Part shown: piece by piece, positions 51,967 through 54,922 of the stretch | Numbering within the stretch: position 1 is the stretch's first letter | Layout of the letters: the number at the start of each line of letters is the position of its first letter | Notes under the pieces: generated by a model | What the model was told of the DNA's origin: nothing | What the model saw: only the letters and a program-made list of their open reading frames with translations | Databases searched by the model: none | From: a virus | Taxonomy: Duplodnaviria > Caudoviricetes | IMG/VR virus record: IMGVR_UViG_3300020577_010931 | Coordinates: 26,951-90,950 of that record | Direction: 5' to 3' (one strand) | DNA: 64,000 nt | Program-made: the position numbers and the translations under genes

Positions 51967-52043
51967 TGGCGAACTCGCCGGGGCTCGAACCCGGAACCTA
52001 CAGCTTAGAAGGCTGTTGCTCTGTCCAATTGAGCTACGAGTTC
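51967..52043 (-). tRNA. tRNA-Arg (anticodon TCT), CCA encoded
   Basis: GAACTCG TA GCTC AATTGGACA GAGC A ACAGC CT-TCT-AA GCTGT AGGTT CCGGG TTCGAGC CCCGG CGAGTTC G CCA; full cloverleaf. Confidence 0.95.
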
Positions 52044-53671
52044 AGAAAGCCCTCCAGGACAGTCACGGCGCTGGCGTCGAACCCATTGATCAGGAGCGAG
52101 TCCGTATCCTTGGGATCGAGCGGGCTTCCGTTGGCCTGTCCCAGATCGAGACAGGCCAGCTTGATTCGACGCTTCTGATCCCTACGAAGACGAGTCATCG
52201 CCTGGGCGACGTGCCCGTTCCCGGCGTAGCTCTCGGTGTCGGTCAGAACGATGAGCGAGTCCGGCTTGTTCGGGCCGTCGCACTCGCGCACGAAAGCCTC
52301 CACAGCCTTGCTCATGTCCGTGCCGCCGCCCTGAGCCTTCCAGTCCAGACCGATCAGACCTGAACGCTTCCGGAGACCCGTATCGAACGACCAGACCGAA
52401 GCCTGCTCGTAGCGATTCTGAAGACAGATGCCGATTCCCAGGGCAGCATCCCAGCAGGAGATGATGTCCTTGCCCGACGTGGCATGGCTCATCGACTGGG
52501 ACTCGTCCAGCACGATGACATGCTTTCCCGGGCGACGCTCGAGGCTGCCCAACGAATCCATGAACTTCCGACCCAGGAGATCGGTCACGGAACGCATCGG
52601 GGTAAACTCCGAGTTCCGCGACTTCCCGCCCTTGCCTCCCGCCTGATAGAACTTCCAGGCGAGGAAGTAGTTGATCGGATGGACCTTCGCGTTGTCCTCC
52701 TCGGCCCAGGTCTGGACGGCCTGGACGTACATGTCCAGCATCTTCGGATCGTTGAAGATGTCACGACGCGTCAGGTTGCCGGCGTTGCGGACCAGCCACG
52801 TCAGTCCCTGCTTCCGGACGAGGAGCGCCTCCCAGACGGCCTTGTGCTTCAGCATCTCCGTCGGAATCATCTCCATGGTCAGACCATGCTCGAAGATGAG
52901 ATCGACGACGACCTTCGGCTCCTTGGCCTCCTGGGCCAGGAGATAGGCGCGAACCAGCGGCGGCAGTTCGCCAACACGCTCGCCCAGACGCTTCTCGAGA
53001 TCCTTGGGATCCTTCGTCGTCAGGAACTTGAACATCAGGTCCTGGGCACCGTTCTCCGGCTTCGGATGAGCGAGCATCAGCGCATCGCGCATGGCCCAGC
53101 CGTCGCGCTGACGATACTTGATGGCCTGGTTGGCCAGCGAGTCGATCGAGCGCTCCGTGAACCACTGGCCGACGTACTTGCGGCTCGCGTATCCCCAGCC
53201 GTGGAATCCCTCCATGTAGTCGATGAAGTGGAGGAGATGCGTGCCGATGCGGCAGTACCGCTTCAGACGCGACCACGCCTTCGTACGCTCGGCGACCGGG
53301 AACGTCGAAGACGTCAGGTACGCCAGAACGTACAGGGTCGGATCCTTGGACGCCGCGAGGCTGTTGTCGTTCACGTCGTCCATGACCGCGAAGATATCGT
53401 CGTACTTCCCCACCGAGGCGAGGTCGTTGACGATATTCACGAAGTCCTTGGTGAGCTTCGCTCCCTGGGCGTAGTAGGTTCCGTTCAGCGTTCCCGTGAT
53501 CAGGAAGCGACGGAACAGGTCGATGTCCTCCCGCTTGAAGGCGTAGCCTCCAGAGAGATTCTTGACCATCTCCCGCTCACGGCCGGGAATCGGCTTGGTC
53601 TGCGGGGTCTGTGCCAGCATGGCCGATCCCGGCCCTCTGGTCGCGAAATGTGAACGCATCGTCTTGGCCAT
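52034..53671 (-). CDS. Ro60/Rsr-like RNA-binding protein (TROVE + vWA domains)
   Basis: KNLSGGYAF...FRRFLITGT.NGTYY; R.GTHL.HF; GWG...RK.V..W; A.KYRQRDGW...D.L.LAHPK; LVRNAGNLT; vWA MIDAS LDESQSMS, GGGTDMS, LTDTE. Confidence 0.92.
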   Translation of the reverse strand: MAKTMRSHFATRGPGSAMLAQTPQTKPIPGREREMVKNLSGGYAFKREDIDLFRRFLITGTLNGTYYAQGAKLTKDFVNIVNDLASVGKYDDIFAVMDDVNDNSLAASKDPTLYVLAYLTSSTFPVAERTKAWSRLKRYCRIGTHLLHFIDYMEGFHGWGYASRKYVGQWFTERSIDSLANQAIKYRQRDGWAMRDALMLAHPKPENGAQDLMFKFLTTKDPKDLEKRLGERVGELPPLVRAYLLAQEAKEPKVVVDLIFEHGLTMEMIPTEMLKHKAVWEALLVRKQGLTWLVRNAGNLTRRDIFNDPKMLDMYVQAVQTWAEEDNAKVHPINYFLAWKFYQAGGKGGKSRNSEFTPMRSVTDLLGRKFMDSLGSLERRPGKHVIVLDESQSMSHATSGKDIISCWDAALGIGICLQNRYEQASVWSFDTGLRKRSGLIGLDWKAQGGGTDMSKAVEAFVRECDGPNKPDSLIVLTDTESYAGNGHVAQAMTRLRRDQKRRIKLACLDLGQANGSPLDPKDTDSLLINGFDASAVTVLEGFLNS

Positions 53672-53718: not shown

Positions 53719-53747
53719 TAGCGCCCGCCGGGTCTCGGCGGGCGCTA
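53719..53747 (-). terminator. Hairpin between the ncRNA region and Ro60 (terminator/attenuator)
   Basis: Perfect 12-bp stem TAGCGCCCGCCG/CGGCGGGCGCTA, followed on the - strand by TGCTTTTG. Confidence 0.65.
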
Positions 53748-53968: not shown

Positions 53969-54922
53969 GGACTGATGAGTTCGCTTGCGCAGTTGATGAA
54001 GGGTCAATCCACGACTTACGGAGTTTGAAGTCCGGGTCGAGGGATTGCTCGGTAGTGTGGTGAGCAATAACCTTCACACGGGCGACCAGTCCAATAGGTG
54101 AACCCGATGATATTGGCCGAGGGAGTCTACCAAAGCACTACAGCAGCACTAGGATAATCCTCAAACCACGACCGGGTCCGTGTAGGAGAATCCGATGAAC
54201 CTGAAAGAGGAGCGGGGCCATCTCTGGTCACCCTGGTAGTCTTGGAGGGATTTCACCTCCTGGCAGATAACCCTCAATCTACGACCGGATCCTTGTAGGT
54301 GAAGCTGATGAAAGAGATCGTGGGTCACGCGTCGTCGGGTGTAATAACCGACTGCCTTAACCGCTAGGCTACAGGTCCCTTGCGAGTCCTGATTGGATTC
54401 GAACCAATGTTTGATAACCCACTTGAGACGACCAGCTTCATGTCAGAGCCGAACCGATGAAACCTCTTGCGAGGGGACCCTCGCCCTTATGGTGGAGGGC
54501 GGGGTCGTAGCCAGCACTTTTTCTCCTTAGGAAAACGCTGAGCGGGACGACCGGTTCGGTTTAGGAGTCGAGTCGATGAGATGCCTTTCGGCGGTTAGGA
54601 CGGGTACCCCGCGGTGTGAACGCAGGACCGATAACCATCCAGGTGGGCGACCGACTCGAGATTTCGGTGGAGCTGATAAGGTGCCTTGCGGCTGAATGGA
54701 AAGCGGCTTTTCATTGAGAGTGAAAACGCTATCCGGGGCGACCAGCTCCATGCTAAGGACCGAACTGATGAGATGCCTTTCGGCGAGCGACAAGGGATCG
54801 TGCATTGAAGAACCCTCATCTAGGTCGACCAGTTCGGTAAATGGTGGAGCCGGCGAGATGCCTTTCGGCGCGAGGTCAGGAGGTCAGCTCATCCAGATGA
54901 TCCTGACAGAGCGGCCGGCTCC
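53969..54922 (-). ncRNA. Tandem array of nine Y-RNA-like structured ncRNA units
   Basis: Units (+ coordinates): 53969-54092, 54100-54179, 54188-54292, 54300-54440, 54449-54559, 54568-54659, 54668-54750, 54759-54838, 54846-54922. Each reads stem-GGUCG-N11-13-UUAUC-like box-variable domain-UCAUC-complementary stem. G.U pairs and GNRA loops fit only the - strand. Confidence 0.85.
54334..54408 (-). ncRNA. Circularly permuted tRNA-like domain inside the array unit at 54300-54440
   Basis: T arm AUUGG-UUCGAAU-CCAAU, then a GCAA-closed acceptor-like stem, then UA-GCCU-AGCGGUUA-AGGC D arm, then GUCGG/CCGAC anticodon-like arm. Confidence 0.8.

What the first reader, a model, noticed from the sequence alone, without database searches (positions are those of the whole stretch)
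54334..54408. One array unit carries a complete circularly permuted tRNA mimic with an anticodon-like arm
Seen in the sequence (- strand, unit 54300-54440): a T arm AUUGG-UUCGAAU-CCAAU; an acceptor-like stem CAGGACUC/GGGACCUG sealed by a GCAA tetraloop; U8A9 followed by a canonical D arm GCCU-AGCGGUUA-AGGC with the GG dinucleotide; then a GUCGG/CCGAC arm with a 9-nt loop UUAUUACAC. Established knowledge: YrlA-type bacterial Y RNAs contain a permuted tRNA-like domain in which T arm, closed acceptor stem and D arm follow in that order, and the anticodon stem continues into the Ro helix. Here the Y helix attaches at the variable-loop position and a separate anticodon arm is kept. It cannot be aminoacylated because the acceptor end is closed. 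Inference: a tRNA decoy for host anticodon nucleases or tRNA-targeting defences, or a substrate for tRNA-modifying enzymes.
Basis: partly seen in the sequence, partly recalled or inferred. Interest (0 to 1): 0.78.

Follow-up and report, generated by a model that had tools for sequence, protein, structure and literature searches.

The report
tRNA-shaped Y RNA in phage array
One of nine small RNAs encoded just upstream of a phage's Ro60 gene is a back-to-front tRNA look-alike of the known YrlA kind. It is wired unusually: an extra hairpin sits where a tRNA's anticodon arm belongs, and the Ro60-docking stem leaves from the variable-loop side. The core is solid, the extra arm is plausible but unproven, and nothing supports the 'nuclease decoy' idea.

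Summary
The window is part of a 90,950-bp virus record. Nine Y-RNA-like units lie directly upstream of a TROVE/vWA Ro60 gene.

I built a covariance model from 41 other phage YrlA-like cores, leaving this unit out. It matches the T arm, closed acceptor hairpin and D arm at 46.5 bits (E 2e-10), and this is the only such match in the genome. The unit is therefore a YrlA-type, tRNA-like Y RNA, which is a published class.

The wiring is unusual. A 5-bp hairpin with a 9-nt loop starts one base after the D arm. The Ro helix joins through 5-nt linkers on both sides. None of about 55 other cores beside canonical Ro60 genes is wired this way. The hairpin folds well in silico, but a comparable one arises in about 10% of shuffles, and no close relatives exist for a covariation test.

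I found the same wiring in a jumbo-phage RNA family, where the anticodon arm covaries strongly. That family sits upstream of a protein whose predicted fold matches Ro60. Earlier notes of this scan describe similar wiring on other DNA.

No evidence supports the anticodon-nuclease decoy idea. I class the unit as a new variant of a known kind, of moderate interest.

The parts
54300..54440 (-). The whole unit: the YrlA-type Y RNA, sixth of nine units counted 5' to 3' on the - strand
   Evidence: MFE fold. Unit boundaries come from the closing stem.
54431..54440 (-). Lower Y stem, 5' strand. It pairs with 54300-54309.
   Evidence: Pair probabilities 0.92-1.00. The equivalent stems covary among the nine units.
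54429..54433 (-). GGUCG motif at the top of the lower stem, the presumed Ro60 contact
   Evidence: Present in eight of the nine units; the first has GGCCG. Also found in other phage Ro loci. Its role in Ro60 binding is inferred.
54300..54309 (-). Lower Y stem, 3' strand, with the CAUCAG-type motif
54414..54422 (-). Upper Y helix, 5' strand, which includes the GGGUUAU box. It pairs with 54320-54328.
   Evidence: Pair probabilities 0.81-1.00.
54320..54328 (-). Upper Y helix, 3' strand
54409..54413 (-). 5-nt linker before the T arm, like a variable loop. Its last C is the candidate partner of G15 in the Levitt pair.
   Evidence: Read from the sequence. YrlA conserves a pyrimidine at this position (10.1101/312249).
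54392..54408 (-). T arm
   Evidence: R1 match. Family covariation.
54372..54391 (-). Closed acceptor-like hairpin with a GCAA loop and one A.A mismatch
54354..54371 (-). U8A9 followed by the D arm
   Evidence: The D stem differs from the family consensus by two compensatory pair changes.
54334..54353 (-). A26-like base followed by hairpin H (5 bp, 9-nt loop), the candidate anticodon-position arm
   Evidence: Pair probabilities 0.83-0.96. Not significant on its own (9.7% of shuffles). There are no relatives for a covariation test.
54329..54333 (-). 5-nt linker between H and the upper Y helix
53969..54922 (-). The array of nine Y-RNA-like units that contains this unit
   Evidence: Each unit folds with a closing stem, and the stems covary between units.
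52034..53671 (-). Ro60/Rsr gene, the presumed protein partner
   Evidence: Pfam TROVE 3.3e-13 and vWA_Ro60 5.3e-11.

Best explanation
The unit is the YrlA-class member of a phage Y-RNA array.

Binding (inferred): phage Ro60 binds the outer bulged helix, with its GGUCG 5' strand and CAUCAG-type 3' strand, as it does in other Y RNAs.

The tRNA module (shown): the inner module is a circularly permuted tRNA-like domain. The T arm stacks on a closed acceptor hairpin, and the D and T loops can form a tRNA elbow.

Likely role (inferred by analogy with YrlA): the elbow presents a tRNA shape to host tRNA-binding proteins, such as modification enzymes, RNase P or a still unknown effector. This tethers them to Ro60 or gates Ro60.

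Wiring (predicted): unlike published YrlA, the Ro helix does not continue the anticodon stem. A separate 5-bp hairpin follows the D arm after one base, so it is the helix most likely to stack under the D stem, in the anticodon-arm position. The Ro helix, flanked by 5-nt linkers on both sides, leaves from the variable-region side like the long extra arm of a class II tRNA.

Status of each step:
- Shown: the sequence elements, membership of the T/acceptor/D core in the phage YrlA-like class, and adjacency to Ro60.
- Predicted only: formation and stacking of hairpin H.
- Inferred: Ro60 binding and effector recruitment.

Sub-confidences: YrlA-type Y RNA about 0.9; H forms in vivo about 0.6; H occupies the anticodon position about 0.4.
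For: - Ro60 gene 297 nt downstream on the same strand.
- Nine units with covarying closing stems and shared motifs.
- Independent model R1, built from 41 cores with this unit left out: 46.5 bits, E 2e-10, full length, the only hit in the 90,950-bp record.
- Family covariation for the T, acceptor and D arms: 95.6% of cells paired, score 0.679 against 0.19 for shuffles and at most 0.126 for slid partners.
- The MFE fold is the five-way junction. H pair probabilities are 0.83-0.96. The competing GUCGUC/GACGAC pairing chosen by the Rfam YrlA model has probability about 0 and costs 6.5 kcal/mol.
- Only 4-5 nt separate the UUAUC box from the T arm, which leaves no room for a YrlA-type anticodon-stem strand.
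- The same wiring occurs in an independent phage family (T arm, acceptor, D arm, one base, 5-bp arm, terminal helix). There the arm covaries: 5 of 5 pairs change on both sides, score 0.611 against 0.116.
- In that family the RNA sits upstream of a protein whose predicted fold matches Ro60 structures over its full length.
- Linker lengths of 0, 2, 1, 5 and 5 nt fit T/acceptor and D/H coaxial stacks. This rests on general rules for helix junctions and is an inference.
Against: - H has no comparative support. No relative of this phage exists in any collection searched; the best Ro60 identity is 33-37%.
- A comparable hairpin arises in about 10% of shuffles.
- The loop has 9 nt, not 7.
- The two tests meant to ask whether the unit reads as a four-arm tRNA do not discriminate. 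ARAGORN accepts the re-ordered sequence, but it also accepts 55% of constructs with H shuffled and 35 of 35 other YrlA-likes. Model R2 forces an alignment over the arm in every YrlA-like RNA.
- From the T-arm side, the 5-nt linker also fits the classical reading in which the Y helix is the anticodon stem.
- The unit scores 22.4 bits against the Rfam YrlA gathering score of 69.
- There is no transcript, binding or probing data.
Confidence: 0.6

Rival explanations
1. Classical YrlA reading. The upper Y helix occupies the anticodon-stem position, with the 5-nt CAAAC linker as variable loop. H is only an accessory or chance hairpin inserted between the D arm and the helix. It could be the counterpart of the GNRA hairpins that related phage YrlA-like RNAs carry between the anticodon stem and the UUAUC-box helix. 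On this reading there is no anticodon mimicry.
For: - The 5-nt linker before the T arm has the canonical variable-loop length and ends in C.
- Several phage YrlA-likes, including L002 from the closest Ro60 relative, have a tetraloop hairpin on the same side, inside the UUAUC-box helix.
- H is no better than about 10% of shuffles, and its loop has 9 nt.
Against: - Between the D stem and the Y helix lie one base, a 19-nt hairpin and 5 more bases. In every 4-way (type A) core surveyed, and in the YrlA crystal structure, the stem starts 0-1 nt after the D arm (10.1101/312249).
- The jumbo-phage family shows that a true arm at this position is a real, selected design.
Confidence: 0.28
2. One reading: the four-arm mimic is a decoy or sponge for host anticodon nucleases or other tRNA-targeting defences.
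For: Only the shape. An exposed hairpin sits at the anticodon position of an otherwise tRNA-like body. Phages are known to counter tRNA-cleaving defences (general knowledge).
Against: - The loop has 9 nt and lacks the 7-nt anticodon-loop pattern of U at position 33 and a purine at 37.
- It shows no similarity to the phage's own tRNA-Arg loop.
- No RtcB or RNA ligase was found in the 78%-complete record.
- In the related jumbo-phage family the loop sequence varies freely. That argues against mimicry of one particular tRNA.
Confidence: 0.06
3. The unit is a precursor. RNase P opens the acceptor hairpin and CCA is added, as in M. smegmatis YrlA. The product is a two-piece, four-arm tRNA-like molecule held together by the Y helix, which could be charged or could enter tRNA pathways.
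For: - The acceptor hairpin has 7-8 pairs, the length that allows RNase P cleavage of M. smegmatis YrlA (PMC4201824).
- The jumbo-phage relatives of this wiring encode a discriminator plus CCA in the acceptor loop.
Against: - Here the loop is a GCAA tetraloop with no encoded CCA.
- The stem carries an A.A mismatch.
- A 9-nt loop is a poor decoder.
- There are no end-mapping data.
Confidence: 0.05
4. The unit is a decayed junction of two tandem tRNA genes with no function of its own.
For: Tandem tRNA junctions give sub-threshold hits to the same model. A dimeric-tRNA origin of YrlA has been proposed (10.1101/312249).
Against: - The two acceptor strands are complementary to each other and closed by a tetraloop.
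- No T arm follows H.
- The module is framed exactly by the Y helices shared with eight neighbouring units.
- The record has only one tRNA gene.
Confidence: 0.01

Closest known systems
YrlA (Y RNA-like A; Rfam RF02553; Chen et al. 2014, PMC4201824; structure in Wang et al. 2018, 10.1101/312249)
   Same: - Encoded next to Ro60/Rsr.
- The outer helix carries the Ro-binding motif.
- The inner domain runs T arm, closed acceptor hairpin, UA, D arm.
- The tRNA elbow nucleotides are conserved, as is the pyrimidine before the T arm.
   Different: - Published YrlA has no anticodon loop, and its anticodon stem runs on into the Ro helix. Here a separate hairpin follows the D arm and the Ro helix joins through 5-nt linkers.
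- The T and D stem sequences depart from the 'extremely conserved' consensus by compensatory changes.
- The Rfam score is 22.4 against a gathering score of 69. Other phage YrlA-likes score 30-42.
Deinococcus radiodurans Yrn1 (PMC4201824)
   Same: A Y RNA modelled with a potential 5-bp 'anticodon arm' and a non-canonical loop (6 nt there, 9 nt here).
   Different: Yrn1 keeps the natural tRNA order, with the stem-loop between the D-like and T arms at the anticodon position and the Y stem at the acceptor side. Its D arm is doubtful.
Similar items were noted by this scan on other DNA (e1-5676802, e1-5459782, e1-5745865). I found no publication and no Rfam hit.
   Same: - Identical wiring: terminal helix, T arm, acceptor hairpin, UA, D arm, one base, 5-bp arm.
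- The protein partner has a Ro60-like predicted fold.
- The D-arm sequence is identical in L145. This was partly forced by the search pattern.
   Different: - The handle sequence is different and is not the GGUCG/UUAUC type.
- The acceptor loop encodes a discriminator plus CCA.
- The anticodon loop has 7 nt.
- The linkers are longer, 10-14 nt.
- The partner is not recognised by Pfam TROVE.
Class II tRNAs (Ser, Leu, bacterial Tyr) with a long variable arm
   Same: An extra helix emerges between the anticodon stem and the T stem. From memory, the D arm resembles class II D arms; this is a lead only.
   Different: The extra helix here is a Y stem of about 100 nt carrying both RNA ends. The acceptor end is closed.
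Circularly permuted tRNA genes (Cyanidioschyzon, PMC3978253) and two-piece tmRNA
   Same: The 3' half (T arm, acceptor 3' strand) is encoded before the 5' half.
   Different: Those are processed into functional tRNA or tmRNA through a bulge-helix-bulge splice site and circular intermediates, or by cleavage. No such motif, CCA or tag reading frame is present here, and ARAGORN finds no tmRNA.

Membership tests
YrlA-type Y RNA | Encoded adjacent to a Ro60/Rsr (TROVE) gene | tested here: met
   TROVE and vWA_Ro60 ORF at 52034-53671 on the same strand, 297 nt downstream of the array.
YrlA-type Y RNA | T arm, closed acceptor-like hairpin, UA and D arm in that order, with tRNA elbow nucleotides | tested here: met
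   Independent model R1: 46.5 bits, E 2e-10, positions 1-60 of 60. The arms covary in the family.
YrlA-type Y RNA | 5' and 3' ends form a bulged helix carrying the Ro60-binding motif | tested here: inconclusive
   The helix is predicted with probability of at least 0.9 and covaries among the nine units. The GGUCG motif is shared by eight of them. Binding itself was not tested, and the published GNCGAA motif is only partly matched.
YrlA-type Y RNA | Anticodon stem continuous with the Ro helix, with no anticodon stem-loop | tested here: not met
   Hairpin H and a 5-nt linker lie between the D arm and the helix. There is no room for a 5' strand before the T arm.
YrlA-type Y RNA | Reaches the Rfam RF02553 gathering score | tested here: not met
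   22.4 bits against 69. Six other phage YrlA-like RNAs also fail, at 30-42 bits.
tRNA | Reaches the Rfam RF00005 gathering score, or is called by ARAGORN in the native order | tested here: not met
   23.8 bits against 29 for 54300-54378. ARAGORN makes no call.
tRNA | 7-nt anticodon loop with U33 and a purine at 37 | tested here: not met
   The loop has 9 nt.
tRNA | Free acceptor end with CCA | tested here: not met
   The stem is closed by GCAA and no CCA is encoded. Opening by RNase P cannot be tested here.
Jumbo-phage rotated-tRNA/handle RNAs | Terminal helix, T arm, acceptor hairpin, UA, D arm, one base, 5-bp arm | tested here: met
   Same order and the same 0/2/1-nt linkers.
Jumbo-phage rotated-tRNA/handle RNAs | Conserved handle sequence and an encoded CCA in the acceptor loop | tested here: not met
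   The handle here is the Ro type, and the loop is GCAA.
Permuted tmRNA | Tag reading frame and tmRNA pseudoknots | tested here: not met
   ARAGORN's tmRNA search is negative. No tmRNA family matches this unit at E up to 10.

The most novel reading that the evidence does not exclude
Ro60-type proteins of phages may use a family of tRNA-shaped partner RNAs in which the docking helix can be grafted at any of three sites of the tRNA scaffold: acceptor, anticodon or variable region. This unit would be the variable-region form for a canonical Ro60. It leaves both the elbow and an anticodon-position arm free, so that whole-tRNA-recognising host proteins could be captured on Ro60. Candidates include synthetases, anticodon-loop enzymes or nucleases. 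After RNase P opening and CCA addition, the RNA itself might even enter tRNA pathways.
Probability: 0.1. Interest if true: 0.75.

Novelty: new variant of a known kind. Interest (0 to 1): 0.42.

Why it matters
Y RNAs are thought to tether Ro60 to effector proteins through their variable inner module. For YrlA that module is a tRNA mimic whose effector is still unknown. A variant that keeps an arm at the anticodon position and moves the Ro60 helix to the variable side changes which faces of the 'tRNA' are free. It therefore narrows or widens the set of possible effectors.

Three wirings can now be set side by side: this unit, the published YrlA wiring, and the jumbo-phage family found here. Together they suggest the tRNA scaffold was joined to a Ro60 handle more than once, or was rearranged. 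That bears on the proposed origin of Y RNAs from tandem tRNAs.

The claim for this single unit rests on a predicted hairpin without comparative support, so its weight is moderate.

Tried and rejected
- Close relatives for covariation in H. None were found by blastn of the array against phages, tblastn of Ro60 against phages (at most 31.6% identity), IMG/VR, the 5.8-billion-protein search (at most 37% identity), or motif scans of viral and metagenome contigs.
- Alternative pairing GUCGUC/GACGAC, which the Rfam YrlA alignment uses. Rejected: probability about 0, and 6.5 kcal/mol worse.
- A YrlA-type anticodon stem. Impossible, because only 4-5 nt lie between the UUAUC box and the T arm.
- ARAGORN on the re-ordered sequence. 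It calls a tRNA, but controls show the test hardly depends on H.
- Four-arm model R2 built from the jumbo-phage family. It scores 42.8 bits but aligns the arm region in all YrlA-likes, so it does not discriminate.
- A partner for the H loop. Its complement occurs nowhere else in the window.
- tmRNA or a permuted tRNA gene. Rejected.
- Repair genes that would fit a nuclease-defence story. No RtcB or RNA_ligase family in the record.
- DUF2828 in either phage. No match, but the control genomes were also silent, so this says nothing.
- The D arm resembles class II tRNA D arms from memory. The phage Ser/Tyr tRNAs I held were too divergent to test it.
- Two reviews on bacterial Y RNAs were not held.

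Full report
**Setting.** The window is bases 26951-90950 of a 90,950-bp IMG/VR virus record, about 78% complete. On the - strand, ORF 52034-53671 carries TROVE (3.3e-13) and Ro60-vWA (5.3e-11) domains. Upstream of it, 53969-54922 folds into nine consecutive hairpin units. Eight units open with a variable stem followed by GGUCG (the first has GGCCG), and all close with a CAUC(A/G)G-type strand (CGCCGG in the first). The stems differ in sequence but stay complementary. The unit in question is 54300-54440. A strong terminator-like hairpin at 53747-53719 lies between the array and the Ro60 start. The whole record has one tRNA gene, Arg-UCU, which overlaps the Ro60 stop. It has no RtcB or RNA-ligase family gene.

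**Observation check.** Read on the - strand, the unit contains, in order:
- a 10-bp lower stem;
- an 8/10-nt internal loop;
- a 9-bp upper helix that includes the GGGUUAU box;
- a 5-nt linker ending in C;
- a T arm (54408-54392);
- an 8-position acceptor-like hairpin with one A.A mismatch and a GCAA loop (54391-54372);
- UA;
- a D arm with A14, G15, GG and A21 (54369-54354);
- one A;
- a 5-bp hairpin H with a 9-nt loop (54352-54334);
- a 5-nt linker and the return strands.

RNAfold gives exactly this five-way junction as the minimum-energy structure (-48.6 kcal/mol, z -2.96). Pair probabilities are 0.8-1.0 for every helix except the D stem, at 0.45-0.47. Rfam gives only sub-threshold hits. YrlA scores 22.4 bits against a gathering score of 69. 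tRNA scores 23.8 against 29 for the stretch from the acceptor 5' strand through the D arm and H.

**Is the tRNA-like core real?** I collected Ro60 loci from seven annotated phages, two metagenome contigs and 80 IMG/VR contigs. I located permuted T/acceptor/D cores in them. From 41 of these cores I built a covariance model, R1, leaving the present unit out.
- R1 finds the unit at 46.5 bits, E 2e-10, over all 60 model positions. It is the only such element in the whole record.
- Across 83 distinct matches the three arms are 95.6% paired. Fourteen of 15 pairs change on both sides. The covariation score is 0.679, against 0.19 for shuffles and at most 0.126 for slid partners.
- The unit's own T and D stems differ from the family consensus by compensatory changes.

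So the unit belongs to the class described by Chen et al. 2014 (PMC4201824). [quoted passage not shown]

**The extra arm.** Published YrlA 'lacks the anticodon loop', and its anticodon stem leads into the Ro60-binding module (Wang et al. 2018, 10.1101/312249). Here that wiring is impossible. Only 4-5 nt separate the UUAUC box from the T arm, so there is no 5' strand for such a stem. The alternative pairing used by the Rfam alignment has essentially zero probability.

The evidence for H is thermodynamic only.
- A hairpin of at least 5 bp starting within 2 nt of the D arm arises in 9.7% of shuffles of the linker.
- The loop has 9 nt.
- Its complement occurs nowhere else in the window.
- Re-ordering the sequence in silico makes ARAGORN call a tRNA. 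But ARAGORN also% of constructs with H shuffled, and 35 of 35 other YrlA-likes when their upstream hairpin is used as the anticodon arm. This test says little.

**How unusual is the wiring?** I ran constrained folds of 46 regex-found cores and looked further at later R1 matches, about 56 distinct cores in all. Two common wirings emerged beside canonical Ro60 genes.
- Type A is a four-way junction like Salmonella YrlA. The closing stem starts 0-1 nt after the D arm and a 4-5-nt linker precedes the T arm. It includes L002 and L052, which belong to the closest Ro60 relatives.
- Type B is a five-way junction with a short hairpin 6-7 nt before the T arm, the 'V arm' of Chen et al. In 28 of the 45 cores where a hairpin with a 7-nt loop was found there (of 56 examined), the loop has U at position 2 and a purine at position 6, the anticodon-loop pattern.

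So anticodon-like hairpins are common in phage YrlA-likes, but on the other side of the module. Only the present unit has no upstream hairpin together with a GC-rich hairpin one base after the D arm. Around its junction the linkers are 0 nt (T/acceptor), 2 nt (acceptor/D), 1 nt (D/H), 5 nt (H/Y) and 5 nt (Y/T). By the usual rule that helices joined by 0-1 nt stack coaxially, H should stack under the D stem, as the anticodon stem does in tRNA. The Y helix would be the odd one out, like a class II variable arm. This step is inference.

**A second family with the same wiring.** A motif scan of IMG/VR (T loop, 18-32 nt, then this D arm) returned mostly tandem tRNAs. It also returned one element with complementary acceptor strands, the same D arm, one A, and a 5-bp/7-nt hairpin, all enclosed by a terminal helix.
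- Its host is a complete 327,676-bp jumbo phage with 39 tRNAs, including a normal tRNA-His. It has no TROVE hit.
- About 500 nt downstream lies a 555-aa ORF with no Pfam match. This ORF has more than 380 homologues at 60-80% identity.
- An AlphaFold model of it (pLDDT 64.7; helical repeats followed by an alpha/beta domain) has Ro60, Rsr and Thermus-phage Ro60 structures as its top eleven PDB matches. The alignments run over the full length, with E from 3e-7 to 1e-3 and TM-scores of 0.31-0.46. A profile comparison aligns its DxSxS motif with the Ro60 vWA site.
- In 75 homologous loci the permuted core recurs upstream of the gene.
- In about 30 distinct copies a 5-bp arm follows the D arm after one base. 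That arm covaries: 95.3% of cells paired, 5 of 5 pairs changed on both sides, score 0.611 against 0.116 for shuffles and at most 0.096 for slid partners.
- These RNAs differ from the present unit. They have another handle sequence, encode a discriminator plus CCA in the acceptor loop, and have 7-nt loops of freely varying sequence. Rfam has no match for them.

Earlier notes of this scan describe the same kind of wiring on other DNA (e1-5676802, e1-5459782, e1-5745865). I used those notes as leads and verified the wiring only in the family above. A four-arm model built from that family scores the present unit at 42.8 bits, but it forces an alignment over the arm in all YrlA-likes and so does not discriminate.

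**Mechanism.** The best-supported account is as follows.
- The unit is the tRNA-like Y RNA of this phage's Ro60 particle.
- Ro60 binds the outer helix. This is inferred from the motif, from adjacency, and from phage precedent: the Ro60 of Thermus phage phiLo binds two upstream Y-like RNAs and forms complexes with host PNPase (PMC12135203).
- The tRNA elbow recruits host tRNA-recognising proteins. This is inferred from YrlA.
- The special wiring would leave an anticodon-position arm free and move Ro60 to the variable side. This is predicted, not shown.

The decoy idea has nothing specific in its favour. The statement that the RNA cannot be charged is weaker than it sounds, given RNase P opening and CCA addition of M. 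smegmatis YrlA.

**Novelty and verdict.** The core is a new member of a published class. The wiring is a variant not described in the papers I could search. Two reviews were not held. The scan has already seen this wiring elsewhere. Confidence that the unit is a YrlA-type Y RNA is about 0.9. Confidence that H forms is about 0.6, and that H occupies the anticodon position about 0.4. Interest is moderate.

Noticed in passing
L145:560-800 (= G001:C1 about 157,560-157,760); protein L117:18189-19856:+ (P0121); loci L144-L218: A conserved jumbo-phage pair. The RNA is a permuted four-arm tRNA-like RNA: terminal handle, T arm, acceptor hairpin whose loop encodes a discriminator plus CCA, D arm, and a covarying 5-bp/7-nt anticodon arm. 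It lies about 500 nt upstream of a 555-aa protein that has no Pfam match but whose predicted fold matches Ro60 structures. The protein has more than 380 homologues. Rfam has no hit for the RNA.
   Followed up: partly
Loci L005-L088, upstream of the T arm of type B cores: The 'V arm' of many phage YrlA-like RNAs is a 3-4-bp hairpin with a 7-nt loop that fits the anticodon-loop pattern (pyrimidine or A, U, three bases, purine, A). A GAGGUC-like 5-6-nt linker and the T arm follow it. Together these read as the contiguous 3' half of a tRNA, which fits the proposed tandem-tRNA origin of YrlA.
   Followed up: partly
window 53719-53747 (- strand): A strong terminator-like hairpin (12 bp, 10 of them G-C, followed by a U tract) lies between the last array unit and the Ro60 start codon. 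The array may be its own transcription unit, or read-through into Ro60 may be attenuated.
   Followed up: no
window 51967-52043 (- strand): tRNA-Arg(UCU) starts inside the last codons of the Ro60 ORF, which ends at 52034. It is the only tRNA gene in the 90,950-bp record.
   Followed up: partly
L078:2353-2413: Next to another phage Ro60 gene, a YrlA-like core has a 7-bp acceptor hairpin whose loop begins with CCA, and a class-II-like D arm. It could be an intermediate between closed YrlA acceptors and the CCA-encoding jumbo-phage form.
   Followed up: no
L003:6619-6836: Group I intron (Rfam RF00028, 89.1 bits) beside a GIY-YIG/LEM-3-like endonuclease gene, about 2 kb downstream of a phage Ro60 gene.
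   Followed up: no
L128:6250-6450: A metagenome contig without Ro60 carries a T arm, a closed 7-bp acceptor hairpin and a D arm, directly followed by an odd tRNA-like gene that ARAGORN calls with a 2-nt 'anticodon'.
   Followed up: no
window 54449-54922 (- strand): The first five units of the array each carry a small G+C-rich tetraloop hairpin (GAAA in three, GCAA in two) just before the 3' strand of the lower stem. A similar tetraloop hairpin occurs in YrlA-like RNAs of distant phages (L002, L067, L070), though there it lies inside the UUAUC-box helix.
   Followed up: no
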